Below are positions 2,337 to 54,826 of a DNA stretch of 64,000 nucleotides, in pieces. The translations under genes were made by a program, and so were the position numbers. Position 1 is the first letter of the stretch. Every line of letters starts with the position of its first letter. This stretch comes from a virus. Taxonomy: Duplodnaviria; Heunggongvirae; Uroviricota; Caudoviricetes. The notes beneath the pieces were generated by a model that was given only the letters and a program-made list of their open reading frames with translations, did no database searches and was not told where the DNA came from. The DNA lies in IMG/VR virus record IMGVR_UViG_3300033463_000016, positions 61,995-125,994 of that record. One strand, written 5' to 3'.

Positions 2337-2959
2337 TACTCAGTCGCCTCCGTTTCATCAACAACATCTTCCTCATCATCGGAGAAATCAAACATTCCCT
2401 CAAAGATATTCGGAACACTGCCGGAGCCGCCATTTAACATCATCAGAGGAAGAATAGCACTTAAACCACCACCGTTACTACCAGCATTGCCCTTCATCAT
2501 TTCTGACATCATCATATAGGACATAATATTCTTCATACCGCCCTTGCCCTTCAGCAAATCAGTGCCGAACGCAGAAACAATCTTGCCATAGAAATATGTA
2601 TTTCCCATAAATACGTGACGTTCAGGGATGATCTTCTCAATCGTGGAATCCTCGTAATTGATTACTTCAATGCTTCCCTTTTCAACACCGATAACACACT
2701 TGGGAAGTTTATTTACAAGGATGATGTCACCAATTTCAACCTTATTGGTCGGAATTACGAAGAAAAACTCATCACCAATATCAAAAACAAAATTGGTGCA
2801 ATTCGTCAGGCGATTCTTTTTAAGGTTATAACTCTTGTAACCACCGGAAGTCTTGACTGCAATACCCCCTGCCATAGAGAGTCTGCACATTCCCGCCTGT
2901 ACCTTACCGAACATTCCGTTCATACTGTTCAAAAAGTTCATTTCTTTACTTCCTTTCAT
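2336..2959 (-). CDS. Hypothetical protein, Gly/Met-rich C-terminus, acidic tail
   Basis: ORF with ATGA start/stop overlap with the vWA gene; no recognisable catalytic motif. Confidence 0.4.
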   Translation of the reverse strand: MKGSKEMNFLNSMNGMFGKVQAGMCRLSMAGGIAVKTSGGYKSYNLKKNRLTNCTNFVFDIGDEFFFVIPTNKVEIGDIILVNKLPKCVIGVEKGSIEVINYEDSTIEKIIPERHVFMGNTYFYGKIVSAFGTDLLKGKGGMKNIMSYMMMSEMMKGNAGSNGGGLSAILPLMMLNGGSGSVPNIFEGMFDFSDDEEDVVDETEATE

Positions 2960-3243
2960 TAACTACCGATAAAGTAGCCTAATTTGTGGATCAATTTAAT
3001 GGTTTCGAGCGCGGTATTTCTATCGTACTCTTTTTCGGACTCAGGCAGCTCATCATAAGGAACCAAGCAAGGATGAAGTTTCTTCTCATCATCTCTGGTT
3101 TCGCCATACTGCCAGCCTTGGGCGATTCTTCCCTGCGCCCATACGTCGTGTGTATTCTCTGCCAACCTCTCGGTCAATGCCAAAAGTTCGGACGAAAGTT
3201 CCACATCACTTGTATCAATGGGCTTGGGATCATACGTTTTCAT
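2959..3243 (-). CDS. RyR (ryanodine-receptor-like) domain protein
   Basis: HDVWAQGRIAQGWQYGETRDDEKKLHPCLVPYDELPESEKEYDR matches bacterial/phage RyR domain signature (W..GW.YG...D...K.HP.LVPY.EL). Confidence 0.6.
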   Translation of the reverse strand: MKTYDPKPIDTSDVELSSELLALTERLAENTHDVWAQGRIAQGWQYGETRDDEKKLHPCLVPYDELPESEKEYDRNTALETIKLIHKLGYFIGS

Positions 3244-8218: not shown

Positions 8219-10249
8219 TTACAACGATGCTAATTCAATGTATTCGCCTTCAGAAATAATCTGTGTTCCAAACTTTTCCGCAGCCTTATTTTTTGAACTT
8301 CCTGAGCTTTTATCATTGGTTATTAAATAATTAGTTTTTGCCGTTACAGCCGATACGACAATTCCGCCGTGAGATTCAATATCGGCTACCAACTCTCTCC
8401 TATTTGAAAATTTGTCTAACTTGCCAGTTATACAAAACGTTTTTCCCGATAGATTATTTGATGATTTATCGAAATCAGATGAAACATCTAACTCTTTTAC
8501 CAATGCGTTAATCTCAAAAGCTATTTCAGATACAAAATTGTTAATGTCGCTGGATGTCTTTTCTCCGATTCCGGGAAGTCTGCTCCAATCAAAGTGTGTT
8601 ATTTCTCCTGCTGCCATATATAAAAACACTTCAAGAGAATTTCTCAACTCACCGCCATATAATTGGTTGACAAATTCGTATTTCTGATCCACATATTCAG
8701 AGATCGTTTTTGCCGTAGTTTTGCCTATGTTTGGAATGCCTATTGCAACGATTACATTAGATAATTTACATTTTCGGCTTTCTTCGATCGCTTGTAGTAT
8801 ATTGTCTACACTATTTTCTCCGAATCCAGGCTTTCCGATTATTTCATCACGGTGGTTTTTGAGATGATATAAGTCGGCAAATGAAGTTATATACCCCATA
8901 CTCATTAAGGCTTTGAGTCTTTCTTCTGAAATACCCACGATATTCAAACCATCTCTTGATGCAAAATTCGCTATCTTATCGTGAATCTTTTCAGGGCAGT
9001 TATCGTTTCGGCAACGCAGCACTTCTCTCCCGTTATTGTTTTCGATAACCGTTGGTTTTCCGCAAGATGGACAAACCTTCGGGATTTCGTATGTATCACT
9101 TCTCGTCAAGTTTTCCTTGATTTGTGGGATAATCTCATTTGCCTTAATAACATTGATCTTATCTCCAATGCCGAGTTGCAATTCACGAATAATACTCACG
9201 TTATTGAGTGTGGCACGGCTTACCGTTGTACCGTCGATTTCAATCGGATCGAAAATTGCCACCGGATTAACCAATCCTGTTCTGCTTGTAGACCATTCAA
9301 TATCTCTCAAAATTGTTTCATTTTCTTCTGGATAAAACTTAAAAGCCAAAGAATGACGAGGATGATGTGATGTGCTGCCGAGGCTTAATCCATACTTGAT
9401 ATTATCAAACATACCAACCATACCATCGATCGGTATGCCTAAATCATCATAAATCTTTTTCATATACTCGATCAATTCTTCACAAGTTAAATCGAGCAAT
9501 ATTGCCTTATTTCTCAATACCGGTTGTGGCGCTACAGTTGCAAATCCTAATTCTTGCAGCCACTTGATTGCGGCAAAATGTGTCGTAAATTTAACGCCAT
9601 CTGCCTTATATAGTTTCCAAGCAATAAACTGAGCGTTTCTTTTGGCAACAATACTACTATCAAAGTGTCTTGCAGTTCCGCTTGCCAGATTTCTTACATT
9701 CTTATACTCTTTTAATCCATTTGCTCTCTGATTAGCGTTGATCGCCTCAAAAGTATCTCTCGTGATAATACATTCTCCATCGACAATCAACTCATCATTA
9801 AACGGAATGGATTTCGGCAAGTTTGTGAATACTTTTGCATTGTGAGTTATATCCTCACCAACGATACCATCTCCACGACTTTCTGCTTTAACGAGTTCAC
9901 CATTGCGATAAGTAATAGAGCAAGTTAATCCATCCAACTTTGGCATAACAATATAAGTTCTATCACCAAAGAAAGATATAAAATTATTGATCTCGGTGGT
10001 TTTATCCAATGAGAGCAATTCGTGATTATGTGTAACCTTTTCTAATTTACTGATTACTGCATATCCGACACTTTGGGTCGGTGAATTAGGATATACAATG
10101 CCCGTTTCTTTTTCATATTCAGTCAGTTTATCAAATAGGGAATCATATTCCCTATCAGAAATTAAGCTCGTGTCGAAATTATAATACATATCACGACAAG
10201 TATTTAATTTCTCTATCAGAGTTTTCATTTCTCCAATCTTATCTGTCAT
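8219..10249 (-). CDS. ligA: NAD+-dependent DNA ligase
   Basis: Adenylation motif MPKLDGLTCS; Cys4 zinc finger CPSCG...CRNDNCPEK; HhH region; C-terminal BRCT (KTFCITGKL); 676 aa. Confidence 0.9.
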   Translation of the reverse strand: MTDKIGEMKTLIEKLNTCRDMYYNFDTSLISDREYDSLFDKLTEYEKETGIVYPNSPTQSVGYAVISKLEKVTHNHELLSLDKTTEINNFISFFGDRTYIVMPKLDGLTCSITYRNGELVKAESRGDGIVGEDITHNAKVFTNLPKSIPFNDELIVDGECIITRDTFEAINANQRANGLKEYKNVRNLASGTARHFDSSIVAKRNAQFIAWKLYKADGVKFTTHFAAIKWLQELGFATVAPQPVLRNKAILLDLTCEELIEYMKKIYDDLGIPIDGMVGMFDNIKYGLSLGSTSHHPRHSLAFKFYPEENETILRDIEWSTSRTGLVNPVAIFDPIEIDGTTVSRATLNNVSIIRELQLGIGDKINVIKANEIIPQIKENLTRSDTYEIPKVCPSCGKPTVIENNNGREVLRCRNDNCPEKIHDKIANFASRDGLNIVGISEERLKALMSMGYITSFADLYHLKNHRDEIIGKPGFGENSVDNILQAIEESRKCKLSNVIVAIGIPNIGKTTAKTISEYVDQKYEFVNQLYGGELRNSLEVFLYMAAGEITHFDWSRLPGIGEKTSSDINNFVSEIAFEINALVKELDVSSDFDKSSNNLSGKTFCITGKLDKFSNRRELVADIESHGGIVVSAVTAKTNYLITNDKSSGSSKNKAAEKFGTQIISEGEYIELASL

Positions 10250-27216: not shown

Positions 27217-27315
27217 AAGGCTCGTTATGACACTGCCTGATGCTCTCCCTGCTGAGCTACAATCGCCATACGGCGAACGATAGGACTCGAACCTATGACT
27301 CTCTGGTTTTCATAT
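27217..27315 (-). ncRNA. CAGCAAT-box tRNA-like RNA, copy g
   Basis: 5' AAGGCTC TAACAGCAATTTTATATG ... ATAGGTTCGAGTCCTAT ... GGCGATTGTAGCTCAGCAGGGAGAGCA ... GAGCCTT 3'; closing stem AAGGCTC/GAGCCTT. Confidence 0.5.
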
Positions 27316-27385
27316 AAAATTGCTGTTAGAGCCTTATTTTCAACAATAAAATTGGTATTTGATTGTCATTTCATTTTCAAAAATC

Positions 27386-27491
27386 AAGACACTTTCGCGT
27401 ACCCATTAGGGTTTGAGGGACTCGAACCCTCTGAAATTAACTTTCCATAGTTGATTTGTTATCCATATCGTAAAATTGCTGTAAGTGCCTT
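27386..27491 (-). ncRNA. CAGCAAT-box tRNA-like RNA, copy h
   Basis: Begins 3 nt after tRNA-Lys CCA: 5' AAGGCAC TTACAGCAATTTTACG ... GAGGGTTCGAGTCCCTC ... GTGTCTT 3'. Confidence 0.5.
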
Positions 27492-27494
27492 ATG

Positions 27495-27569
27495 TGGTGC
27501 GCGTGATGGGAGTCGAACCCAACTAAGCACGATTAAAAGTCGTGTGCATAGCCGCTTTGCTACACGCGC
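27495..27569 (-). tRNA. tRNA-Lys (TTT), CCA encoded
   Basis: Acceptor GCGCGTG/CACGCGC, D-arm GCAA..GCAC, anticodon stem CACGA/TCGTG with loop CTTTTAA, T-loop GGGTTCGACTCCC. Confidence 0.85.
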
Positions 27570-27574
27570 ATATA

Positions 27575-27648
27575 TAGCGAGTACAAGGAGTCGAACCCTG
27601 TTTCCCCACCCGTTTCGGAGTAGCGCAATTCCGATATACTAACTCGCT
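27575..27648 (-). pseudogene. tRNA-like gene without a foldable anticodon arm
   Basis: Acceptor AGCGAGT/ACTCGCT and T-arm CAGGGTTCGACTCCTTG present; no 5-7-5 anticodon stem-loop can be formed; abuts next tRNA. Confidence 0.4.
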
Positions 27649-27722
27649 TGGAGGGTGGTATAGGATTTGAACCTATCCTGAAAGTGCCACAAACTAACGT
27701 GCTACCGCTACACTAACCACCC
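27649..27722 (-). tRNA. Probable tRNA-His (GTG); no genomically encoded G-1; CCA encoded
   Basis: Acceptor GGGTGGT/ACCACCC, D-arm GTGT AGCGGTA GCAC, anticodon loop TTGTGGC with weak 3-bp stem, T-arm ATAGGTTCAAATCCTAT; base preceding +1 is T. Confidence 0.5.
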
Positions 27723-27907
27723 ATTTTATTCTCATTATCTTTTAATAATGTTTCCAAGAATTTAATTTCATTAATTACAAACTTAAAGAAATCATATAAA
27801 CATATCTGTTGTTCTAACATTATTGAATCTTCACAAAACACACAGCATTGTGGTTGTGAATTGGTATAAACAACACGACCACAAGTATTACAAATATATT
27901 TTTTCAT
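27713..27907 (-). CDS. Small zinc-ribbon protein
   Basis: CNTCG...CCVFC pairs; 64 aa. Confidence 0.35.
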   Translation of the reverse strand: MKKYICNTCGRVVYTNSQPQCCVFCEDSIMLEQQICLYDFFKFVINEIKFLETLLKDNENKMGG

Positions 27908-27954
27908 ATAACTTCCAAAGTTTAATCATTCTGTATCTTCCGTTTGTGGCAAGA

Positions 27955-27995
27955 GCGCAAGGAATCGAACCCTGATTGAAATCTAAATCAAATAT
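27955..27995 (-). other. Orphan tRNA 3' fragment (T-arm plus acceptor plus CCA) overlapping the KptA stop
   Basis: CAGGGTTCGATTCCTTG CGCTCTTG CCA with no matching 5' half upstream. Confidence 0.45.
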
Positions 27996-28513
27996 TTTGT
28001 TGGAACCTCAGATGTGAGATATACTCCATTCTCAGATAGAAAAAATTTATATCCATCTTTATACATATCCTGCGCTGCAATTGAGAGAACAACCGGATTT
28101 CCGTGTCTTTTCCCTACCATAATTGCAGTGCTATGATCCTTTGATAAATGCACATAAAGGCGTGACATTGGTTTGATTCCATTTTTATAAATAGAATCTA
28201 AAACATTGGAACTCGTTCCGTGAAAAAGTATTTCAGGAGGGTTGACCTCTTTGAGTTCCACTTCCACATTAACTGAATGACCTTGATTGGCTCGAATCAT
28301 TGTTTTATCATTATTGAACGAATATCTATGTTTGCTGTCAGTGGCAACAATTTCTTCAAGGATAGACATATTTATTTCCGGAAACTTTATCTTTAATCCA
28401 GTAATCAATTCATTCACTTTAGCCCAACCGTGTGAATCAAGTTTAATATTTGCTACTTCCGGCTTGTGCCTTAATACAAGGCTTATAAAAATACTTACTT
28501 TTTTCAAATTCAT
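27983..28513 (-). CDS. kptA: RNA 2'-phosphotransferase (Tpt1/KptA family)
   Basis: SIFISLVLRHKPE, IRANQGHS, LFHGTS, HVHLS and RHGNPVVL family motifs; 176 aa. Confidence 0.8.
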   Translation of the reverse strand: MNLKKVSIFISLVLRHKPEVANIKLDSHGWAKVNELITGLKIKFPEINMSILEEIVATDSKHRYSFNNDKTMIRANQGHSVNVEVELKEVNPPEILFHGTSSNVLDSIYKNGIKPMSRLYVHLSKDHSTAIMVGKRHGNPVVLSIAAQDMYKDGYKFFLSENGVYLTSEVPTKYLI

Positions 28514-28564
28514 AAGTTTTACCTATTCATCGTCCTTATATGGTTTCATACTTCCACAAAATTT

Positions 28565-28807
28565 TCATCCTTGACACTCGATCCAATTCATAAAATACTG
28601 AAAAAACATATCAGAAGTGATTTCCGGCGGTGTTTCGATTATACCATCGAGTTCAGTAAGATTGGTGCGGAACATCGGTAGGAACTTAACACAAGGAGAT
28701 TGATCGCTTGTCCAACACCATTCAGCATTATTCCGGCAATGATTACACTGGTTGGATTGCTTTTTCTTATAATGACTAAATAAACTCATATCAATACTCC
28801 GTATCAC
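28565..28807 (-). CDS. Hypothetical Cys-rich protein
   Basis: 80-aa ORF with CNHC...C...C. Confidence 0.3.
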   Translation of the reverse strand: MIRSIDMSLFSHYKKKQSNQCNHCRNNAEWCWTSDQSPCVKFLPMFRTNLTELDGIIETPPEITSDMFFQYFMNWIECQG

Positions 28808-29121: not shown

Positions 29122-29195
29122 TGGCAGGGCAGCGAGGAATCGAACCCCGATAAGCAGTTTTGGAGGCTGCTGTTCTTCCACTGAACTACTGCCCT
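29122..29195 (-). tRNA. tRNA-Trp (CCA), CCA end encoded
   Basis: Acceptor AGGGCAG/CTGCCCT, D-arm GTTC..GAAC, anticodon loop CTCCAAA, T-loop GGGGTTCGATTCC. Confidence 0.8.
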
Positions 29196-29446: not shown

Positions 29447-29935
29447 TGGTGGAGATGGCGGGAATTGAACCCGCGTCCAAAATTCATACTCAAATTAACT
29501 CTTTTTACGCAATAGACCGAATTTCGCCGAACGTCGCTCGGTCAAACGATGGGTAACATTATAACTTGCGATCATATATAATTGAATGTTCGTTATATGA
29601 TGCAAGAGGTCGTCGGAAACCTGGGCTGCAAAGGTATTGCGCAAGTCCACCACTTGCTTTTTAGGAAAGCAAGAAAACCGGTGAGTAAAACTCCACTACC
29701 ACTTGTCTTTAGGCTCAGACAAGAAACCATCATTCAATATTCGTCCGGCAAATTAACCGAATGATAGGTGTTTGCTGGAATCTGGATCAAGCCGCAGCTC
29801 TCTTAGAGAGAACAGCAACAAGAGCCGGATGTAAAGATACAACAGTATTGTCGTTTATTTTTGTTTTGCGCCGTGAGGTGGTCGCCAACCTGCGAAGTTA
29901 ATTCTTTCAAAACCCTGTCGAAGCCTGTCATCCCC
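29447..29935 (-). ncRNA. ssrA: tmRNA (SsrA)
   Basis: 5' GGGGATGACAGGCTTCGACAGGG and 3' GGACGCGGGTTCAATTCCCGCCATCTCCACCA match tmRNA termini; internal tag ORF ending ...KRAAA-TGA. About 489 nt, long for a tmRNA. Confidence 0.8.
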
Positions 29936-30035: not shown

Positions 30036-30387
30036 ATATATAGCCCTGATAACCACCAAAACTTGAATAACCTTATTGTGATCGTGTGCTTTTTGTGTAT
30101 CAGAGCTATTACTTTTGTTACCTTGGCTATTATTTCCGCGACGTTGCGCTGACGCCAGGCGGACTTAGGTTGCCATCCTAATCGTTTATACCCAATTCCG
30201 TTGCCAACTCGGAAAGGTTTTAATCAAAGATGCGAATCCCATCTTATCCGTTTGTCTGTATCGGGCTGAACGAATCAAAAAGCCCGCCGCTTCGGTTTAA
30301 GCAGTACCACACGCTATTTTCAGGTAAAGCGCACCCACCCCACCAGTGGTAAACACCAGCGCAAACAAACTATTTTGGCAACAGGCA

Positions 30388-30461
30388 GTTCGACCTTTGG
30401 CTCTCGTGGCGGGATTTGAACCCGCGTAATCCATCCGCCTAATATAGCGCTACTTATTAGG
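30388..30461 (-). ncRNA. D-arm-less tRNA-like RNA (7-bp anticodon-like stem, 10-nt loop), CCA encoded
   Basis: Acceptor TCTCGTG/CACGAGA, stem CCTAATA/TATTAGG with loop AGTAGCGCTA, T-arm GCGGGTTCAAATCCCGC; no D-arm can be formed. Confidence 0.4.
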
Positions 30462-30551: not shown

Positions 30552-30845
30552 TTAAAAATGCGGCTCCGAGATTTAATCGTGTCCGACCGCCTTGTTTATT
30601 CTCGAAACTTAGGGACTAATCCGATTCGCACGGTGACTACACCTATTTATACTCCGTTGCTGACAATCTTTGGAGTTTTAGATCGAGCCATAGGAATTTC
30701 ACCTATGGGAGCAACATCCGGATTTGGTCTGCGCAGCACCGTGCCGGAAAGCCTTTTGTTTAATCCTGTTGGCTTAAACAGTCTTTGTCTAATTGAATTT
30801 GTGTTGCTTTTTCATATTTCATATTTTTAAGAGATTTTCTTTTTG

Positions 30846-32970: not shown

Positions 32971-33759
32971 TTAGAATACATTGTGAAATCTAAAAGAAGG
33001 CATAGGCGCCATTTTGAATTGGTTTTTCTTATGTAAAAAGTCTATCTTCTTTTGCACCGCAGGATCATCACAAATACCGGTTCGGATATACTTATCCAGT
33101 ACGGCATACGTGAATCCAAGGTTTTCCTCATCAGTCTTTCCACACAACCCATCTGTTGGTGCTTTTTCCATTAGATGTTCCTGTAATCCGAGAGCATACC
33201 CAATCTCGATAACTTCACTTTTTGTAAAATCTGCAATCGGAGCGAAATCGCCAACAGAGTCACCGTATCTGGTTGAATAGCCAATATAATCTTCCGAGAA
33301 ATTGCAGGTATTCGCAACTCGACCATTCTTGCTCTGAGATACGGCGTATAACATCGCCATTCTGATTCTTGCCGGTAGGTTAGTTCTTGTCTGCTCGGAA
33401 ATATCCATATGTGCGCTTTCCATAGCATTATACACACTATCGACGGCAGCACCAATATTCACCTTGTATTGACGGATTCGCAGTGAGTTCACCACAGTAT
33501 GAGCATAATCAATATCATCTTGAACGTGGTTAGGCATCAGAACACCGATAACTCTACTTTCACCGAGAGCCTTTGTACAAAGAGCCGCAACAACCGTACT
33601 ATCAATTCCACCGGAAATTCCGACGATAGCATTGTTGCCGTTTCCGTTCTTTTCAAACCAGCCTTTTATCCAGTCTATACACTTTGCGGCGGCAAAATGT
33701 CCAAATCCATATCTCTCCATACTAAAACTCTCCATTGTGAAGTTTATTACGAATATCAC
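32971..33759 (-). CDS. nadE: NH3-dependent NAD+ synthetase
   Basis: PP-loop IVGISGGIDSTVVAALC; 262 aa. Confidence 0.85.
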   Translation of the reverse strand: MIFVINFTMESFSMERYGFGHFAAAKCIDWIKGWFEKNGNGNNAIVGISGGIDSTVVAALCTKALGESRVIGVLMPNHVQDDIDYAHTVVNSLRIRQYKVNIGAAVDSVYNAMESAHMDISEQTRTNLPARIRMAMLYAVSQSKNGRVANTCNFSEDYIGYSTRYGDSVGDFAPIADFTKSEVIEIGYALGLQEHLMEKAPTDGLCGKTDEENLGFTYAVLDKYIRTGICDDPAVQKKIDFLHKKNQFKMAPMPSFRFHNVF

Positions 33760-35239
33760 TTAAACTTTGCTCAACAAGCATTTTACCGTCACGGAAAACA
33801 GGAATAAGCAAATTGCACTTTTCGGATTCTTCAACATCACGGTTGATTCCGATCGTATCATTGAAGTGCATATAAGTAATATTCTTCCAAGAATATCCAT
33901 CCCGATACGTCAATTCTCCATTCTCACCATAGAACACCTTGCAACAACCCTTTTGGGATGTTTTGAACCCACCATCTTTAGGGTCTTTGAAGATCGGCGT
34001 CGGTTCTCCATCAATTTCGCAATAGGTCGCCTTAATACAAGAGCTGAATGTATCGCGTGTAAACGGATTAAATACTCCATCTTCCTCGATACATTGGAAC
34101 GAGAATGAGCCAACACCAAGGGCAACGTTTGAACAGGCGAATCCGTTATCTTCCAAGATGCTGTAAATCATAGCACAGCGTTGGATCGTGATAGAATCTC
34201 CGTAAATTGCCTTAACGTGTGGATCAAGAACCTTGTAACCTTTACTATTGATGGTTCCACCAAAGATTTCCCATAACTTGAAAACGGTATTCGTTACAAC
34301 ATCAACACAGTTGCCAGAATCGCCACGCATCAGCATACAGCCATTATGAGCGAGGATTTCAGACTTCAACTGCGGCAGGATATTATTAATTACATTCCAA
34401 TAATCATAGGAATCCAATACAGCGGAGAATGAAGTGTTCGGATAGATTTCCGTCAAGAGTCTACGCAGCAGAGTAATTTCATCACCATCAACTGCAAAAT
34501 TAGAACACATCACAGAATGTTCCGTACTCGGAGAACCGAATCCGACCGGCTCTTTCGTACAATCACAGTTATAATACTTTTCAAGATAAGGAATTGTCGG
34601 AACAGTAGCAGTATTAAGGAACGATAGCAGCCAACCCGCACCCGCCTTTGTTGCGGATTGCAAGCATTCCTCGCCTCGGAAATCAAATGCGCCTAACGCT
34701 CTGGCTCTCGAAATACTATCGTCACAAGTCTTATCATAATATCTGTTTACAATTTGGCGATATGTATACCCAACCGTAGCAGCGATCATCGGATGCCACA
34801 TCTCAGCGGAAATCAATGATTCAAGCGACTGTGGAAGCCAAGCAAAGTCCTTATGTGTATTTGTGATACAAAACATCGGAACGTGCATCGGCACAAGCGT
34901 TCCTTCCGGCAAAGCCCACACTTCAATGGGAAGATAACCGAGTTTGTGTAACTTCTTGATCTTCTCAATGTTGTATGTATTCTCTCCAAGAGTAGCATCC
35001 ATTACTCTCTTGTAATCGCTGATAACTTCTTCAAAAGGCTTGTTAAAAAACTCACGATTGAAATAATCAATCAAATATGTTTTGATAAAGCCCTGTAAGC
35101 CAAACATTACGACCTTATCCCACATTCTGATTCTGCTCATTCTCGGAGTGAAATATGATACCGATTTCGTGATCTTTTCCGGTAGCATTTCAGCGTGAAC
35201 AGCCTTGTAATAATCAATCAGTAACATCGGATTTGTCAT
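33722..35239 (-). CDS. Nicotinamide phosphoribosyltransferase family protein (NadV/Nampt or Namat-like)
   Basis: Extensive collinear similarity to human NAMPT (SYF..R; GLQ; LPIE...PEG; DFRG; EHS; DSYD; RGDSGN; KGYK; GDSIT; VFKDP). Confidence 0.85.
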   Translation of the reverse strand: MTNPMLLIDYYKAVHAEMLPEKITKSVSYFTPRMSRIRMWDKVVMFGLQGFIKTYLIDYFNREFFNKPFEEVISDYKRVMDATLGENTYNIEKIKKLHKLGYLPIEVWALPEGTLVPMHVPMFCITNTHKDFAWLPQSLESLISAEMWHPMIAATVGYTYRQIVNRYYDKTCDDSISRARALGAFDFRGEECLQSATKAGAGWLLSFLNTATVPTIPYLEKYYNCDCTKEPVGFGSPSTEHSVMCSNFAVDGDEITLLRRLLTEIYPNTSFSAVLDSYDYWNVINNILPQLKSEILAHNGCMLMRGDSGNCVDVVTNTVFKLWEIFGGTINSKGYKVLDPHVKAIYGDSITIQRCAMIYSILEDNGFACSNVALGVGSFSFQCIEEDGVFNPFTRDTFSSCIKATYCEIDGEPTPIFKDPKDGGFKTSQKGCCKVFYGENGELTYRDGYSWKNITYMHFNDTIGINRDVEESEKCNLLIPVFRDGKMLVEQSLSDIRNKLHNGEF

Positions 35240-36087
35240 ACGTCAAACACCTCGATCTTATTTGGCATCAACCCAATATCGTGAGCGTATTTCTGATCCC
35301 GCTTTGTGAAGATGCTATTCGTAGTATAGAGCTTTTCAATCAAATCTTCGTGAAGCAGTTCACCACGAAATACCGTGTTTTCACAATGAGTCACATAAAG
35401 ATAGATTTTTCCAGCTCCAAGTTCCTTCAACTTCTTTGCGGAATGATAGAACGTGCCACCTCTACAACAAATATCATCAATAATAAGAACAATTTTATCC
35501 TCAATCTGTGATGTATCGCCTTGAACATAAAGACCCTTGATTTTCCCTGTTTTCCAATCTCGGTCTTTATCACCGTGCATATATGGAAAATTGACCATAC
35601 CCATATAACGTTTCATAGCACCACCATCGGGAAAGAAAATCATAAATGAATCTTCATCTTCGATTTTATTTTCTATGATAGTATTTTCGATTGCTCTTTT
35701 GATTAAATGCGTCGGATCAATAACTTGTACCCTATCAAACAACGCGGAAGCCACATTTGAATGCGGGTCTAAGATAACCACCTTGCGGAATTTCAGAAAA
35801 TTGATAAACTCCGCAAAATATTTGAGAGTGAAAACGTCGTTATCGTCCTTTACCCTATCCATTCGTGCATTCGGCACATAAGGCAGATAAAGAGATACAT
35901 CGTATCCGAGATTCTGATAATGCTTTGTCAAGAATAACAACGCAGCCATTTCACCATCATTCTCGTAATACCACGAAATGGGAATAGCATTGTTTTCCCA
36001 GGATATTTCTGTAACTTCCGGCGTCAAATGCAACGTGCCATCCGGAAAATGATCGAGTTTTACTTCTTCATCAAAAATCTTAATCAT
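35236..36087 (-). CDS. Ribose-phosphate pyrophosphokinase family protein (Prs/Adps-like)
   Basis: PRPP-binding loop KIVLIIDDICCRGGTF; 283 aa; 4-nt overlap with NAMPT-family gene. Confidence 0.8.
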   Translation of the reverse strand: MIKIFDEEVKLDHFPDGTLHLTPEVTEISWENNAIPISWYYENDGEMAALLFLTKHYQNLGYDVSLYLPYVPNARMDRVKDDNDVFTLKYFAEFINFLKFRKVVILDPHSNVASALFDRVQVIDPTHLIKRAIENTIIENKIEDEDSFMIFFPDGGAMKRYMGMVNFPYMHGDKDRDWKTGKIKGLYVQGDTSQIEDKIVLIIDDICCRGGTFYHSAKKLKELGAGKIYLYVTHCENTVFRGELLHEDLIEKLYTTNSIFTKRDQKYAHDIGLMPNKIEVFDV

Positions 36088-36631
36088 TCTTTACCTCGTC
36101 AATCTGACAAGAACCCATAACCATCTTTGCAGCGTTATGAAGTTCGGGAGTCACACCCGCGCAGCAGGAGTAATCACAAGCGATCTGGATTTCAGGTGAA
36201 AACGCCTTAATCACAAGGGCATTACTGATTACACAAATATCAGTACACAGCCCGACGATTTCAACGTAATCAAATTTTTCGTTCTTGATGGTTTCAGCGA
36301 GTTTTACCGATCCGAATGTTTCCTTCATAAAAACACTCTGATCGTAACCGCCATTTGTGGCGTTCAGACGCTCACGAAAAGCTGCCTCAATTTCAGGATT
36401 AAGCTGCCAACCATCAGTATGGACGATGCAGTGCTTTACCGGCAGGTGCTTTCCCTCGTTACTGTCTAGGTAGGAATTGTCAAAATGACTGTCATATGTA
36501 ACACATACATTACCATCAAAAGACCTAATCTTATTGATGACGCTGTTCACAATTGCCTTTGCTTCGGGAGTTCCAAGCGCACCGTCAATGAAATCATTTT
36601 GGCAATCTATAACCACAAGTAGTCTTTTCAT
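36080..36631 (-). CDS. Isochorismatase-family hydrolase (nicotinamidase PncA-like)
   Basis: LLVVIDCQNDF N-terminus, catalytic Cys context GLCTDICV; 183 aa. Confidence 0.7.
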   Translation of the reverse strand: MKRLLVVIDCQNDFIDGALGTPEAKAIVNSVINKIRSFDGNVCVTYDSHFDNSYLDSNEGKHLPVKHCIVHTDGWQLNPEIEAAFRERLNATNGGYDQSVFMKETFGSVKLAETIKNEKFDYVEIVGLCTDICVISNALVIKAFSPEIQIACDYSCCAGVTPELHNAAKMVMGSCQIDEVKND

Positions 36632-38200: not shown

Positions 38201-38572
38201 TCAAGAATGTAATAAGATTGGAAATTGCACGAGGATCGCATTTGTGATGTCAGTCAAAGTATCTTCATCCGTGATGGCTCCGATACATCTATCCAGACGT
38301 TCAATATTGATTGTTTGGATTTGTTCTACCAACATTGTACTCGGAGCATTCAAACCATATGCGTGATGATTCCAAAGCTCAACGTGTACCGGCAACTTCC
38401 GTTTGTGCATTCTCGATGTTATTGGAATGACATTCAACGTAGTGCTATATGTATTATTTTTGTCATTCGAGAGGATAAAAACAGGTCTATATCCACCCTG
38501 CACGCTACCCTCATTTGTGTTCAGGTAGCATAGCCAGATTTCACCGCAACGCGGATGATTAGTGCGCAGCAT
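38201..38572 (-). CDS. MazF/PemK-family endoribonuclease toxin-like protein
   Basis: GEIWLCYLNTNEGSVQGGYRPVFILSNDKNN...VIPITS matches PemK/MazF core. Confidence 0.75.
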   Translation of the reverse strand: MLRTNHPRCGEIWLCYLNTNEGSVQGGYRPVFILSNDKNNTYSTTLNVIPITSRMHKRKLPVHVELWNHHAYGLNAPSTMLVEQIQTINIERLDRCIGAITDEDTLTDITNAILVQFPILLHS

Positions 38573-40591: not shown

Positions 40592-41566
40592 TTATTTGCT
40601 CACTCCTTCGACAAGGCTGAGAATTTCATTCATTGCATCCAAATGGATAGCAGGATCGGTGATCCCCGCATTTTCCGCTCCCATCTGATAAGCCATAGAC
40701 AGAATATCTCTTAAATCTCCGATGTCCAGAGTAACCATAGGGTTGCCAGATTCGGATACGAACAGTTTTCCGTCCCTGATGTGAGTTGCATAGAAATCTC
40801 CAAAATCAGCGAAGTAACTGTTTACCTTGTCTTTTGTTAATCCAATATATCTCTTAGTCGTTTTTGTATCACTGTGATTATAGATAGTCTGCAAAAGCTC
40901 CATACTATCATAATCGTTTGGATGAAGGATACGGCTAATCTTACCAAATGTTTTTCTGGTGCTGTGTGTACCGATGTTGTATTCGATGCCAACACTAACG
41001 GCAGCACGCTTTAGAGCTTTTCTCCAACCGTCAGCAGAAATTACGTTACCCTTACCGGTTCCGCTCAACTGCAAAAATACGGGATTCTGATAGGCGTTAT
41101 CAGCCGGATTACAATTCGTCTTTTCCAAATAAAGAGTTATGGCGTCACGGCAAGCCGAGTTGATAAGAGGATTCGCAAGTTTGTCTGTCTTTTCCTCGAC
41201 GATTTCAAGCAGTTCATTCCGAAATGATCCGGTTGCCGGATTGAAAAAGTGTTCCCATCTCAGGCTCAAAGTATCGCCGATACGCCTTGCCATATTCAGA
41301 GAAATGACGAAAAGCAGATAGTGAAGCCACGCCTCATTCGCTGTGAAGTAGTCGATCATCTTCTTCAAATCTTCCACTTCAAACGGATAAACCTCTGATT
41401 TCTTGCCCTTTTTCTTATTCTGGACAATCCTCTTTGGTTTGCCGGACTTTGTGAGTTTCGGCGTATTCTCGTTTTTCGGTTCGACCGGCATTTCCGCGTA
41501 GAAAGTTTGACCTGGAAATAGCGGTGAAGTCACAATAACGGTATTGGTTTCCATTGTCTGTTTCAT
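40592..41566 (-). CDS. Tyrosine recombinase / phage integrase family protein
   Basis: ARRIGDTLSLRWEHF (Arg box), HSTRKTFGK (HxxR), TKRYIGLT (catalytic Tyr region). Confidence 0.65.
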   Translation of the reverse strand: MKQTMETNTVIVTSPLFPGQTFYAEMPVEPKNENTPKLTKSGKPKRIVQNKKKGKKSEVYPFEVEDLKKMIDYFTANEAWLHYLLFVISLNMARRIGDTLSLRWEHFFNPATGSFRNELLEIVEEKTDKLANPLINSACRDAITLYLEKTNCNPADNAYQNPVFLQLSGTGKGNVISADGWRKALKRAAVSVGIEYNIGTHSTRKTFGKISRILHPNDYDSMELLQTIYNHSDTKTTKRYIGLTKDKVNSYFADFGDFYATHIRDGKLFVSESGNPMVTLDIGDLRDILSMAYQMGAENAGITDPAIHLDAMNEILSLVEGVSK

Positions 41567-54250: not shown

Positions 54251-54826
54251 TCAAGCCACCTCATATAATCTTGTTCTCAACTCCGGCAACTTCTCAGCAA
54301 TCGGTCTTTTGTCTTTCAACGCTGCGCATAACTCGGTGAATGGAAGAATGTCCAGAATCCGGCTGTACTGCTCAATCTCGGAATACATTTCAAACTGACG
54401 CTTGTATTCTTCCCTCATCTTGTCCGCTGCTGATTTAATCCTTGCCATATCATCGGCGGGAATATAATTCTCTGCAACATACAGCTTGATATTACCAGCC
54501 GGAGAAATGTGTGCAACCATCTTGTAATCGTTATTCTCCATTACCGCACGATTACATACTGTCAAACCATTTCCCAAATAGCCCATAAAAAGATCAAATT
54601 TCTTTGCCGTTTCCGGCTGTTCTTTCCCCTGTGTTTCGATAGAAATTATGTGGCAAATCTCATCGTTTCGGATGATTGACCAATTCATTTGCCATTTGTG
54701 TCCTTTATCGTCCGTTCCCGTCCAATGTCCGGTATCATCTTTGGTATAAACCATCTTGCCGATGGCGTTGCCCGCCATAATCTCACATTCGATTCTGATC
54801 GCATTTCTCGGTATCTTGTTTGCCAT
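54251..54826 (-). CDS. Hypothetical protein
   Basis: 191-aa ORF. Confidence 0.35.
   Translation of the reverse strand: MANKIPRNAIRIECEIMAGNAIGKMVYTKDDTGHWTGTDDKGHKWQMNWSIIRNDEICHIISIETQGKEQPETAKKFDLFMGYLGNGLTVCNRAVMENNDYKMVAHISPAGNIKLYVAENYIPADDMARIKSAADKMREEYKRQFEMYSEIEQYSRILDILPFTELCAALKDKRPIAEKLPELRTRLYEVA

What the first reader, a model, noticed from the sequence alone, without database searches (positions are those of the whole stretch)
27950..28513. KptA/Tpt1 RNA 2'-phosphotransferase in the tRNA island, ending on an orphan tRNA 3' fragment
A clear Tpt1/KptA homolog (LVLRHKP, RANQGHS, HGTS, RHGNPVVL) lies between tRNAs. Tpt1 removes the 2'-phosphate left at a splice junction by yeast/plant-type RNA ligases; in bacteria and phages its substrate is unknown. 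Together with the Thg1-like enzyme, the P-loop kinase, the DHH and the metallophosphoesterases, it suggests a dispersed RNA end-healing and sealing toolkit, perhaps counteracting host anticodon nucleases. The CDS stop overlaps a T-arm plus acceptor plus CCA fragment with no 5' half, which could be an attachment-site-like remnant or a partial tRNA duplication.
Basis: partly seen in the sequence, partly recalled or inferred. Interest (0 to 1): 0.6.

Follow-up and report, generated by a model that had tools for sequence, protein, structure and literature searches.

The report
Phage KptA gene beside tRNA-Trp remnant
A large gut or rumen phage carries an intact copy of the known RNA 2'-phosphate-removing enzyme KptA on a small strain-specific insert in its tRNA gene cluster, and the "orphan tRNA piece" next to it is a leftover end of a dead tRNA-Trp gene; both are ordinary.

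Summary
The ORF at 27983-28513 (- strand, 176 aa) is a genuine full-length Tpt1/KptA: Pfam PF01885 E=1e-47, and E=4e-49 to the biochemically proven Runella Tpt1, with the catalytic Arg-His-Arg-Arg tetrad intact (R15, H16, R63, R118).

The tRNA-like piece is real but lies at 27974-27947. It starts 8 nt after the stop codon and does not overlap it. It is the 3' third (T-arm, acceptor 3' strand, G73, CCA) of a phage-type tRNA-Trp. All 16 database tRNAs that share its acceptor strand are tRNA-Trp, and the best match (28/30) is a tRNA-Trp in a 188-kb phage. No host tRNA matches it, and the integrase gene is 12.6 kb away.

Two related phages lack kptA. In this phage a 955-bp block (kptA, the remnant, a 64-aa ORF, tRNA-His, an odd tRNA-like gene) sits at an insertion hot spot between a conserved small ORF and tRNA-Lys. 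The remnant is therefore best read as a recombination scar.

Phage KptA is already annotated in 98 GenBank phages and has been proposed to act in tRNA repair. No RNA ligase, Pnkp or 2H enzyme was found in the ~84 kb examined of this ~171-kb genome, so the "healing and sealing toolkit" remains unproven. This is a new member of a known kind, of low to moderate interest.

The parts
27983..28513 (-). kptA: RNA 2'-phosphotransferase (Tpt1/KptA), 176 aa, catalytic tetrad R15/H16/R63/R118
   Evidence: PF01885 E=1.1e-47 over the full length. NCBIfam NF002014 scores 235 bits against a cutoff of 239. PDB 7KW8 (Runella Tpt1) E=4.3e-49, ungapped over 173 residues. Tetrad defined in PMC6097658. GC 34% and GC3 29%, against 40% for the window.
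27947..27974 (-). 3' third of a tRNA-Trp pseudogene: T-stem/loop CAGGG-TTCGATT-CCTTG, acceptor 3' strand CGCTCTT, G73, CCA. No D-arm, anticodon arm or 5' acceptor strand.
   Evidence: Coordinates. No tRNA call. 16 of 16 database tRNAs containing GGTTCRANTCCNNNCGCTCTTG are tRNA-Trp(cca). It is 28/30 identical to the tRNA-Trp of a 187.9-kb phage contig (L151), whose 5' strand is AAGAGCG.
27575..28529 (-). Lineage-specific 955-bp block (kptA, the tRNA-Trp remnant, ORF64, tRNA-His, an atypical tRNA-like gene) at an insertion hot spot
   Evidence: blastn of relative L149 against the window: collinear at 72-77% on both sides (ORF74 77%, tRNA-Lys 95%). L149 has an unrelated 230-nt spacer in place of this block. 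In L117 the ORF74 homologue directly abuts tRNA-Lys.
27713..27907 (-). ORF64, a small CxxC...CCxxC zinc-ribbon protein inside the block (GC 26%)
   Evidence: No relatives in IMG/VR.
27649..27722 (-). tRNA-His(GTG) inside the block. No encoded G-1 (base -1 is T); discriminator is U73.
27575..27648 (-). Atypical tRNA-like gene (ARAGORN 'Arg-acg', no CCA, not found by Rfam). Its T-arm CAGGGTTCGACTCCTTG differs from the remnant's by 1 nt.
28565..28789 (-). ORF74, a conserved Cys-rich small protein and the left flank of the block
   Evidence: 74% identical homologue P0242 in L149. 30% homologue in L117.
27495..27569 (-). tRNA-Lys(TTT), the conserved right flank of the block
   Evidence: 95% identical to L149 10491-10570.
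29122..29195 (-). Intact tRNA-Trp(CCA) with acceptor AGGGCAG/CTGCCCT, ancestral in this lineage
   Evidence: 71/74 identical to the L149 tRNA-Trp. Only 24/30 identical to the remnant, and the acceptor strands are incompatible.
32971..36631 (-). Context: NAD+ salvage cluster (NadE, NAMPT, PRPP synthetase-like, nicotinamidase/isochorismatase). It could resupply the NAD+ that KptA consumes and recycle the nicotinamide it releases.
   Evidence: Conserved in L149 and L117, which lack kptA.
20950..21738 (-). Context: Thg1-like 3'-5' nucleotidyltransferase
   Evidence: PF04446 E=3e-30.

Best explanation
The gene encodes a catalytically competent NAD+-dependent RNA 2'-phosphotransferase. [quoted passage not shown]

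The gene is an accessory gene. It sits on a 955-bp, AT-rich, lineage-specific block inserted between a conserved small ORF and tRNA-Lys, in the hypervariable tRNA and small-RNA island of a ~171-kb circularly assembled phage.

The 28-nt tRNA-like piece, 8 nt downstream of the stop codon, is what remains of a second, phage-type tRNA-Trp gene. Its 5' two-thirds were lost when kptA was joined to it. The loss was tolerable because an intact tRNA-Trp lies 1.15 kb upstream. On this reading the piece is a recombination scar, not an attachment site and not a working RNA.

The most likely role of the enzyme is inferred, not shown: cleaning 2'-phosphates from tRNAs or other RNAs cut by metal-independent nucleases during infection. 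This could happen either at a terminal 2'-PO4 before ligation or at the junction after ligation. The phage's own NAD+ salvage genes could replace the NAD+ consumed.
For: Enzyme identity:
- PF01885 full length, E=1e-47.
- E=4e-49 and an ungapped alignment to RslTpt1, a proven 2'-phosphotransferase, with R16/H17/R64/R119 matching R15/H16/R63/R118.

Accessory, inserted gene:
- Absent from the two nearest relatives, which are collinear on both sides (L149 at 72-77% nt, L117 at ~60% aa).
- Absent within +/-10 kb of the DUF2828 gene in 76 IMG/VR phage loci.
- GC3 of 29% against 39-49% for conserved neighbours.
- The closest homologues (64-69%) sit in unrelated phage-like contigs, next to a tyrosine recombinase.

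Remnant identity:
- 16/16 tRNA-embedded matches to its acceptor strand are tRNA-Trp.
- 28/30 identity to a phage tRNA-Trp whose 5' strand, AAGAGCG, is the exact complement.
- No cloverleaf, and the local fold is no better than shuffled sequence (z = -0.1 and +0.9).
- A second orphan tRNA 3' end (GGCGTGCCA) lies at the same hot spot in L149.

Repair context:
- Thg1-like enzyme, two metallophosphoesterases, DHHA1, a TROVE-like DUF2828 protein with Y-like RNAs, SPFH, tmRNA, RlaP and a CCA-adding enzyme.
- Published comparative genomics assigns phage KptA to tRNA repair (PMC7824862, PMC9503650).
- An NAD+ salvage cluster lies 4.5 kb away.
Against: - No RNA ligase, polynucleotide kinase-phosphatase or 2H cyclic phosphodiesterase was detected in the ~84 kb read, so no source of 2'-phosphates is shown. 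About 93 kb of the genome was out of reach.
- The gene's context is not conserved among other KptA-bearing phages, so there is no guilt by association.
- The closest characterised enzyme, RslTpt1, is poor at removing terminal 2'/3'-phosphates (PMC6573784).
- The remnant still has a perfect T-loop, a fully paired T-stem and CCA. That fits either a recent event or some constraint. All four metagenome copies are identical, so selection cannot be judged.
- The direction of the event (insertion here, or loss in the relatives) rests on only two relatives.
Confidence: 0.65

Rival explanations
1. The fragment is an attP core or integration-site remnant: the phage, or a cassette within it, integrates into a host tRNA-Trp gene through a tyrosine recombinase and carries the tRNA 3' end in order to rebuild it.
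For: The fragment runs from the T-stem to CCA, which is the usual extent of tRNA-borne att cores (general knowledge). The phage encodes a Phage_integrase-family protein at 40592-41566. A Lachnospiraceae MAG tRNA-Trp (L043) ends in the same CGCTCTTGCCA. The closest kptA homologues sit directly next to a homologous recombinase (38% identity).
Against: The pattern scan of 185,579 species genomes found no tRNA gene carrying the exact sequence. The only locus with the exact T-arm and acceptor is a non-tRNA site in a Dormiibacterota MAG. The best matches are phage tRNA-Trp genes (L151 28/30, L011 26/30). The recombinase gene is 12.6 kb away. The intact tRNA-Trp upstream cannot be the partner, because AGGGCAG does not pair with CGCTCTT. 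The flank ORF74 is ancestral, so there is no bounded element between the two Trp sequences. The recombinase-adjacent kptA loci contain no tRNA or T-loop sequence. The genome assembles as a circle spanning the contig ends and carries 17+ tRNAs, which is more typical of a virulent phage.
Confidence: 0.07
2. The fragment is a working RNA element rather than debris. It could be a degenerate Y-RNA-like or tRNA-like module, a decoy for enzymes that attack tRNA 3' ends, a processing signal at the 3' end of the kptA message, or the -35 box of a promoter for ORF64 and tRNA-His.
For: The island holds at least 8 Y-RNA-like units, several of which contain a T-arm. The unit at 24103-24027 has a nearly identical T-arm context. 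A hairpin, CUCUUGCC-ACAAAC-GGAAGA, follows the T-arm, as in closed YrlA acceptors. TTGCCA-16 nt-AATGAT overlaps the CCA end upstream of ORF64. The T-arm is still perfect.
Against: The Y-like 5' signature (AAGRCNC..RCAGCAAYYTTA) and the 3' strand GNGTCTTG are both absent; the upstream sequence is kptA coding sequence. Rfam finds no YrlA or tRNA hit. Folding is no better than shuffles. Promoter-like hits in the region do not exceed chance (5 found, 5.9 expected). There is no 5' acceptor strand, so RNase P or RNase Z recognition is unlikely. Acceptor + G73 + CCA match the tRNA-Trp class exactly, which points to a tRNA gene origin.
Confidence: 0.1
3. KptA works here not in break repair but through another NAD+-dependent chemistry. 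One option is ADP-ribosylating 5'-phosphate ends of RNA or DNA (capping). Another is reversing an as yet unknown host defence that phosphorylates or otherwise marks RNA 2' positions.
For: Tpt1 enzymes can ADP-ribosylate 5'-phosphorylated nucleic acids (PMC12678800 and PMC10415124 abstracts). No ligase was found nearby. The phage invests heavily in NAD+ (salvage cluster, NAD-dependent DNA ligase, RyR-domain protein).
Against: There is no direct evidence, and none of the computations run here could discriminate between the chemistries. The active site is that of a canonical 2'-phosphotransferase, and the closest relative, RslTpt1, is a bona fide one. The NAD+ salvage cluster is conserved in relatives that lack kptA, so the two are not co-inherited. 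No PADLOC defence-system model matches.
Confidence: 0.12
4. kptA is a recently acquired passenger gene (a 'moron') with little or no integrated function in this phage.
For: It is lineage-specific and AT-rich, lies at an insertion hot spot, and is flanked by debris. Its context is not conserved across phages.
Against: The reading frame and all catalytic residues are intact. The sequence is identical in four independent metagenome assemblies. KptA recurs in 98 phage genomes from several lineages, which argues for a selectable benefit.
Confidence: 0.1

Closest known systems
Runella slithyformis Tpt1 (PDB 7KW8/7KW9) and Clostridium thermocellum Tpt1 (6E3A/6EDE)
   Same: Same length (176 vs 178-182 aa). 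The alignment to RslTpt1 is ungapped (E=4e-49). The Arg-His-Arg-Arg tetrad is the same, and the one-domain-pair architecture is the same by sequence.
   Different: This copy is encoded by a phage. RslTpt1 lies in a putative bacterial RNA-repair gene cluster, whereas no ligase or kinase is seen nearby here. Activity is untested, and Tpt1 enzymes differ in terminal-phosphate and capping activities, which cannot be read from sequence.
KptA of large phages (Clostridioides phage phiCD211 family at 58-60% identity; Erwinia/Dickeya/Klebsiella jumbo phages at ~41%; Bacillus phage G gp280)
   Same: A stand-alone ~180-aa KptA in a large tailed phage, annotated as RNA 2'-phosphotransferase and proposed to clean 2'-phosphates during tRNA repair.
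   Different: Here the gene lies inside the tRNA island, next to a tRNA pseudogene and near an NAD+ salvage cluster. In the other phages its neighbours are unrelated hypothetical genes, and no tRNAs were found in the phiCD211 locus, the only one of the three scanned.
tRNA gene remnants and pseudo-tRNAs in mosaic phage tRNA clusters
   Same: A 3' piece of a tRNA gene left at a recombination junction. A second example (a tRNA-Arg-like GGCGTGCCA end) sits at the same hot spot in relative L149.
   Different: This remnant is unusually clean (perfect T-arm and CCA) and abuts a horizontally acquired enzyme gene.
tRNA-borne attP/attB sites of integrative elements
   Same: The fragment covers the T-stem to the 3' end, like many att cores. 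An intact tRNA of the same isotype lies upstream on the same strand.
   Different: No matching host tRNA, no adjacent integrase, acceptor strands that are incompatible with the upstream tRNA-Trp, and no bounded element.

Membership tests
Tpt1/KptA RNA 2'-phosphotransferase (PF01885) | Full-length match to the family profile above the curated threshold | tested here: met
   PF01885 scores 162.8 bits against a cutoff of 26, covering residues 5-168 of 176 and profile positions 5-176 of 177.
Tpt1/KptA RNA 2'-phosphotransferase (PF01885) | Essential Arg-His-Arg-Arg tetrad (RslTpt1 R16/H17/R64/R119; E. coli KptA R21/H22/R69/R125) | tested here: met
   R15, H16, R63 and R118 align without gaps to 7KW8. 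Spacing of 48 and 55 residues matches RslTpt1.
Tpt1/KptA RNA 2'-phosphotransferase (PF01885) | NCBIfam equivalog score (NF002014) | tested here: inconclusive
   235.1 bits against a cutoff of 239. This is 4 bits short of one subfamily equivalog and has no bearing on family membership.
Tpt1/KptA RNA 2'-phosphotransferase (PF01885) | NAD+-dependent removal of RNA 2'-PO4, or complementation of yeast tpt1-delta | not testable with these tools
   Requires a biochemical or genetic assay.
Functional tRNA gene (tRNA-Trp) | Complete cloverleaf: 5' acceptor strand, D-arm and anticodon arm with CCA anticodon | tested here: not met
   No ARAGORN or Rfam call. The sequence upstream of the T-arm is the kptA 3' end. 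No AAGAGCG-type 5' strand lies nearby.
Functional tRNA gene (tRNA-Trp) | T-arm, acceptor 3' strand, G73 and CCA of the tRNA-Trp class | tested here: met
   16/16 tRNAs with this acceptor strand are tRNA-Trp. 28/30 identity to the L151 tRNA-Trp.
tRNA-borne attachment site | Sequence identity to the 3' end of a host tRNA gene | tested here: not met
   No tRNA gene with the exact sequence in 185,579 species genomes. The exact 25-mer is absent from the JGI metagenome collection, and the best matches are phage tRNAs. The true host may not be sampled.
tRNA-borne attachment site | Adjacent site-specific recombinase, and a direct-repeat partner bounding an element | tested here: not met
   The integrase-family gene is 12.6 kb away. 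The upstream tRNA-Trp shares only the 13-nt T-loop core and has an incompatible acceptor. ORF74, which lies between the two, is ancestral.
YrlA / Y-RNA-like RNA | Terminal Ro-binding stem with a conserved 5' motif, plus a tRNA-like module | tested here: not met
   The motifs seen in the island's 8 units are absent around the fragment. There is no Rfam hit.
Heal-and-seal RNA repair system (T4 Pnkp/Rnl1 type or yeast Trl1/Tpt1 type) | An RNA ligase plus a 5' kinase and a 2',3'-cyclic phosphodiesterase or phosphatase in the same genome | tested here: inconclusive
   No Rnl, RtcB, Pnkp or 2H hit in the window plus ~10 kb on each side. The 316-aa neighbour of RlaP has a polymerase-palm fold, not a ligase fold. 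About 93 kb of the genome could not be read.

The most novel reading that the evidence does not exclude
KptA is the NAD+-driven end-cleaning step of a phage tRNA-rescue pathway with no conventional ligase or kinase. It would work with the TROVE-like protein and its Y-like RNAs, the Thg1-like enzyme, the RlaP / palm-domain protein / CCA-adding operon and the phage's own NAD+ salvage genes. That would supply the long-missing physiological substrate for a bacterial-type Tpt1: tRNAs carrying 2'-phosphates made during host anti-phage RNA cleavage.
Probability: 0.12. Interest if true: 0.7.

Novelty: new member of a known kind. Interest (0 to 1): 0.27.

Why it matters
What Tpt1/KptA does in organisms without a yeast-type tRNA ligase is a long-standing open question. 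A phage that carries KptA inside its tRNA island, together with Thg1, a CCA-adding enzyme, a TROVE-like protein with Y-like RNAs, and its own NAD+ supply, would be a reasonable system in which to look for natural 2'-phosphorylated RNAs. As it stands, though, the gene is one more example of an already annotated class. It is not conserved even in the nearest relatives. The tRNA fragment is a recombination scar that mainly shows how these tRNA islands are reshuffled.

Tried and rejected
- **Split or intron-containing tRNA with kptA inside.** Rejected. No AAGAGCG-type 5' half lies upstream of kptA, and ORF74 there is ancestral.
- **Displaced 3' end of the neighbouring intact tRNA-Trp (classic attL/attR).** Rejected, because the acceptor strands are incompatible.
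- **kptA captured from a host chromosome together with a flanking tRNA.** Rejected. The 3' part of the tRNA, not the 5' part, abuts the gene. The closest kptA homologues have no tRNA nearby and are themselves in phage-like contigs.
- **Fragment as a Y-RNA-like unit.** Rejected.
- **ORF64 as a conserved partner of kptA.** The small zinc-ribbon ORF downstream of kptA in L145-L148 shows no significant similarity to it.
- **Relatives of KptA or ORF64 in IMG/VR.** None found.
- **Exact fragment in JGI metagenomes.** None found.
- **ORF 54251-54826 as a 2H phosphoesterase (two HxS/T motifs).** No Pfam or PHROG hit, and the single-sequence AF2 model is unusable (pLDDT 46).
- **ORF 19917-20711.** It belongs to a large uncharacterised family (776 representatives) with no Pfam or PDB match.
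- **PADLOC scan of KptA and neighbours.** Nothing found.

Full report
**Observation**

The window is identical to metagenome contig ena:ERZ27257207:k141_8416588 (171,080 bp) and spans its two ends. L001 matches window 29465->19983 with 0 mismatches in 9,483 nt. L143 (contig 1268-22242) matches window 51566->30592. By arithmetic, the contig ends overlap by about 141 nt, so the assembly is circular at ~170.9 kb. All genes read on the - strand.

ARAGORN finds 17 tRNAs between 21863 and 31095, and Rfam adds a tmRNA at 29447-29935.

Downstream of the ORF the - strand reads TAG-ATTTCAAT-CAGGG-TTCGATT-CCTTG-CGCTCTT-G-CCA. The tRNA-like piece therefore occupies 27974->27947. No tRNA is called there by ARAGORN, or by Rfam even at E<=10 on a 261-nt slice.

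The T-loop consensus occurs 25 times in the window against 2.5 expected, almost all of them in the island and on the - strand. The piece is not a chance match.

**The enzyme**

- Pfam PF01885 matches end to end (E=1.1e-47).
- The best solved relative is Runella slithyformis Tpt1 (7KW8, E=4.3e-49, 173 residues without a gap).
- RslTpt1 is a proven NAD+-dependent 2'-phosphotransferase whose Arg16, His17, Arg64 and Arg119 are essential (PMC6097658). The ungapped alignment places these at R15, H16, R63 and R118, all conserved.
- One NCBIfam equivalog misses its cutoff by 4 bits. This does not affect family membership.

**The fragment**

I searched for its acceptor strand with any T-stem (GGTTCRANTCCNNNCGCTCTTG) in IMG/VR and in 185,579 species genomes. 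I also ran a stricter pattern that fixes its T-stem (CAGGGTTCRANTCCTTGCGCTCTTG) against JGI metagenomes. Together these gave 59 matches. Sixteen lie inside ARAGORN tRNAs, and all sixteen are tRNA-Trp(CCA).

The closest match is the tRNA-Trp of a 187.9-kb phage contig (L151), at 28/30 identical. Its 5' acceptor strand, AAGAGCG, is the exact complement of the fragment's CGCTCTT.

The phage's own intact tRNA-Trp (29122-29195) is only 24/30 identical. Its acceptor (AGGGCAG/CTGCCCT) cannot pair with the fragment. The fragment is therefore the 3' third of a second, different, phage-type tRNA-Trp gene.

No tRNA gene in the species genomes carries the exact sequence. The exact 25-mer is absent from the metagenome collection scanned, although that collection evidently does not include every JGI record, since L003 has it.

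**Comparative genomics**

- A homologue of the upstream small ORF (ORF74; P0242, 74% identity) led to L149. L149 is a relative that is collinear with the window at 72-77% nt across the NAD+ genes, SPFH, the tRNAs, ORF74, tRNA-Lys, the Y-like RNAs and the DUF2828 gene.
- L149 lacks kptA. Window 28529->27575 (955 nt: kptA, the remnant, ORF64, tRNA-His and an atypical tRNA-like gene) is replaced there by 230 unrelated nt. Local alignment is no better than shuffles. That spacer itself ends in a tRNA-Arg-like GGCGTGCCA stub.
- In the more distant L117 (~60% aa) the ORF74 homologue abuts tRNA-Lys directly.
- None of 76 IMG/VR loci centred on DUF2828 homologues encodes KptA.
- kptA, ORF64 and ORF106 are AT-rich (GC3 20-29%) compared with conserved neighbours (39-49%).
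- The intact tRNA-Trp is ancestral (71/74 identical to L149).

The simplest reading is that the ORF74/tRNA-Lys junction is an insertion hot spot. kptA arrived there, or in a donor island, by a recombination that cut off the 5' two-thirds of a redundant tRNA-Trp.

**Where kptA came from**

The closest homologues (64-69% identity) include some labelled Lachnospiraceae MAG proteins. Those inspected lie in phage-like contigs of small co-directional ORFs, including a 171.6-kb one. There, kptA sits directly downstream of a tyrosine recombinase, among GmrSD_N genes, with no tRNA nearby.

Ninety-eight GenBank phage records encode KptA: the phiCD211 family at 58-60% identity, and Erwinia, Dickeya, Klebsiella and Serratia jumbo phages at ~41%. 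The neighbourhood is not conserved.

Phage KptA is discussed in PMC7824862 and PMC9503650 as an NAD+-dependent 2'-phosphate clean-up step in tRNA repair.

**The 'toolkit'**

Confirmed in the window:
- Thg1-like enzyme (E=3e-30)
- a weak DHHA1 match
- two metallophosphoesterases
- a 158-aa P-loop protein of unknown function
- a DUF2828/DUF7788 (TROVE-like) protein
- SPFH
- NAD-dependent DNA ligase
- an NAD+ salvage cluster (NadE, NAMPT, PRPP synthetase-like, nicotinamidase)
- a PemK-type toxin

No Rnl1/2, RtcB, Pnkp or 2H was found in the ~84 kb read. About 93 kb could not be reached.

The Thg1-like enzyme has a specific and simpler likely role. The phage tRNA-His has T at position -1 and U73, so G-1 must be added after transcription.

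**Mechanism**

*Shown:* an intact Tpt1 active site.

[quoted passage not shown] The nicotinamide could be recycled by the phage NAMPT 4.5 kb upstream. That cluster is also present in relatives that lack kptA, so the two are not co-inherited.

*Cannot be decided from sequence:* whether the substrate is a ligation junction, a terminal 2'-phosphate, or something else. Tpt1 enzymes differ in terminal-phosphate activity, and RslTpt1 is poor at it (PMC6573784).

**Verdict**

The enzyme call is right, and the repair idea matches published proposals but is not demonstrated here. The fragment is a tRNA-Trp pseudogene remnant, not an att site, and it does not overlap the stop codon. This is a new member of a known kind. 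Interest is low to moderate. The most interesting material lies around the finding rather than in it.

Noticed in passing
window 23940-24440 and 27209-27482 (- strand): An array of at least 8 Y-RNA-like small RNA units. Each has a terminal stem (5' AAGRCNC / 3' GNGYCTT) that varies between copies by compensatory changes: CAGACAC/GTGTCTG, AAGACGC/GCGTCTT, ATACCCA/TGGGTAT, AAGGCTC/GAGCCTT, GGCAC/GTGCC. Each also has a nearly invariant RCAGCAAYYTTA motif. One unit (27326-27209) hits Rfam YrlA (27.6 bits, below the gathering score of 69) and has a permuted tRNA-like module. The units lie upstream of the TROVE-like DUF2828/DUF7788 gene (25327-26853) and are also present in L149 and L117. The motif is 6-fold enriched in the 1.5 kb upstream of DUF2828 genes in 76 IMG/VR loci.
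   Followed up: partly
window 23890-24017 (- strand): A tRNA-like RNA with a canonical acceptor (GGGGCG/CGCCCC), D-arm and T-arm. Its anticodon arm is replaced by a ~75-nt insert that carries a Y-like stem and the CAGCAAT motif. It amounts to an unpermuted counterpart of YrlA.
   Followed up: partly
window 27649-27722 and 20950-21738: The phage tRNA-His has no genomically encoded G-1 (base -1 is T) and has U73, and the phage encodes a Thg1-like enzyme. The pair probably forms a self-contained tRNA-His maturation module rather than a repair function.
   Followed up: partly
window 29447-29935 (- strand): A phage-encoded tmRNA (Rfam 87.5 bits), with a wcaG RNA match (48 bits against a gathering score of 42) nested inside it at 29639-29731. 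ARAGORN did not call the tmRNA.
   Followed up: no
window 32971-36631, 8219-10249, 2959-3243: NAD+ economy. A four-gene salvage cluster (nicotinamidase/isochorismatase, PRPP synthetase-like, NAMPT, NadE) differs in composition from the published NARP1-3 pathways. There is also an NAD-dependent DNA ligase and a RyR-domain protein, a family recently linked to degrading ADPR-based immune signals.
   Followed up: partly
[not shown]
   Followed up: partly
L149 10470-10490: Relative L149 carries a different orphan tRNA 3' end (GGCGTGCCA, like the phage tRNA-Arg genes) immediately upstream of tRNA-Lys. This is the same junction where the window has the kptA block, so the junction is a recurrent breakpoint.
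   Followed up: partly
window 38201-38572 (- strand): A PemK/MazF-family endoribonuclease toxin homologue encoded by the phage (precomputed Pfam PF02452). MazF-type RNases leave 2',3'-cyclic phosphate ends.
   Followed up: no
window 27575-27648 (- strand): An atypical tRNA-like gene. ARAGORN calls it Arg(acg) with an oversized anticodon loop. It has no CCA and is not detected by Rfam. Its T-arm differs from the tRNA-Trp remnant's by 1 nt.
   Followed up: no
window 30040-30400 and 30560-30840 (- strand): Long GC-rich noncoding stretches between tRNAs. They look structured, but no Rfam family matched at E<=1.
   Followed up: no
L007 11618-11639 (IMG/VR 3300013121_000008, 158 kb): Another phage tRNA island has an orphan T-arm plus a CGCTCTTG acceptor piece between tRNA-Pro and tRNA-Ile. 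tRNA-Trp remnants may therefore recur in phage tRNA clusters.
   Followed up: no
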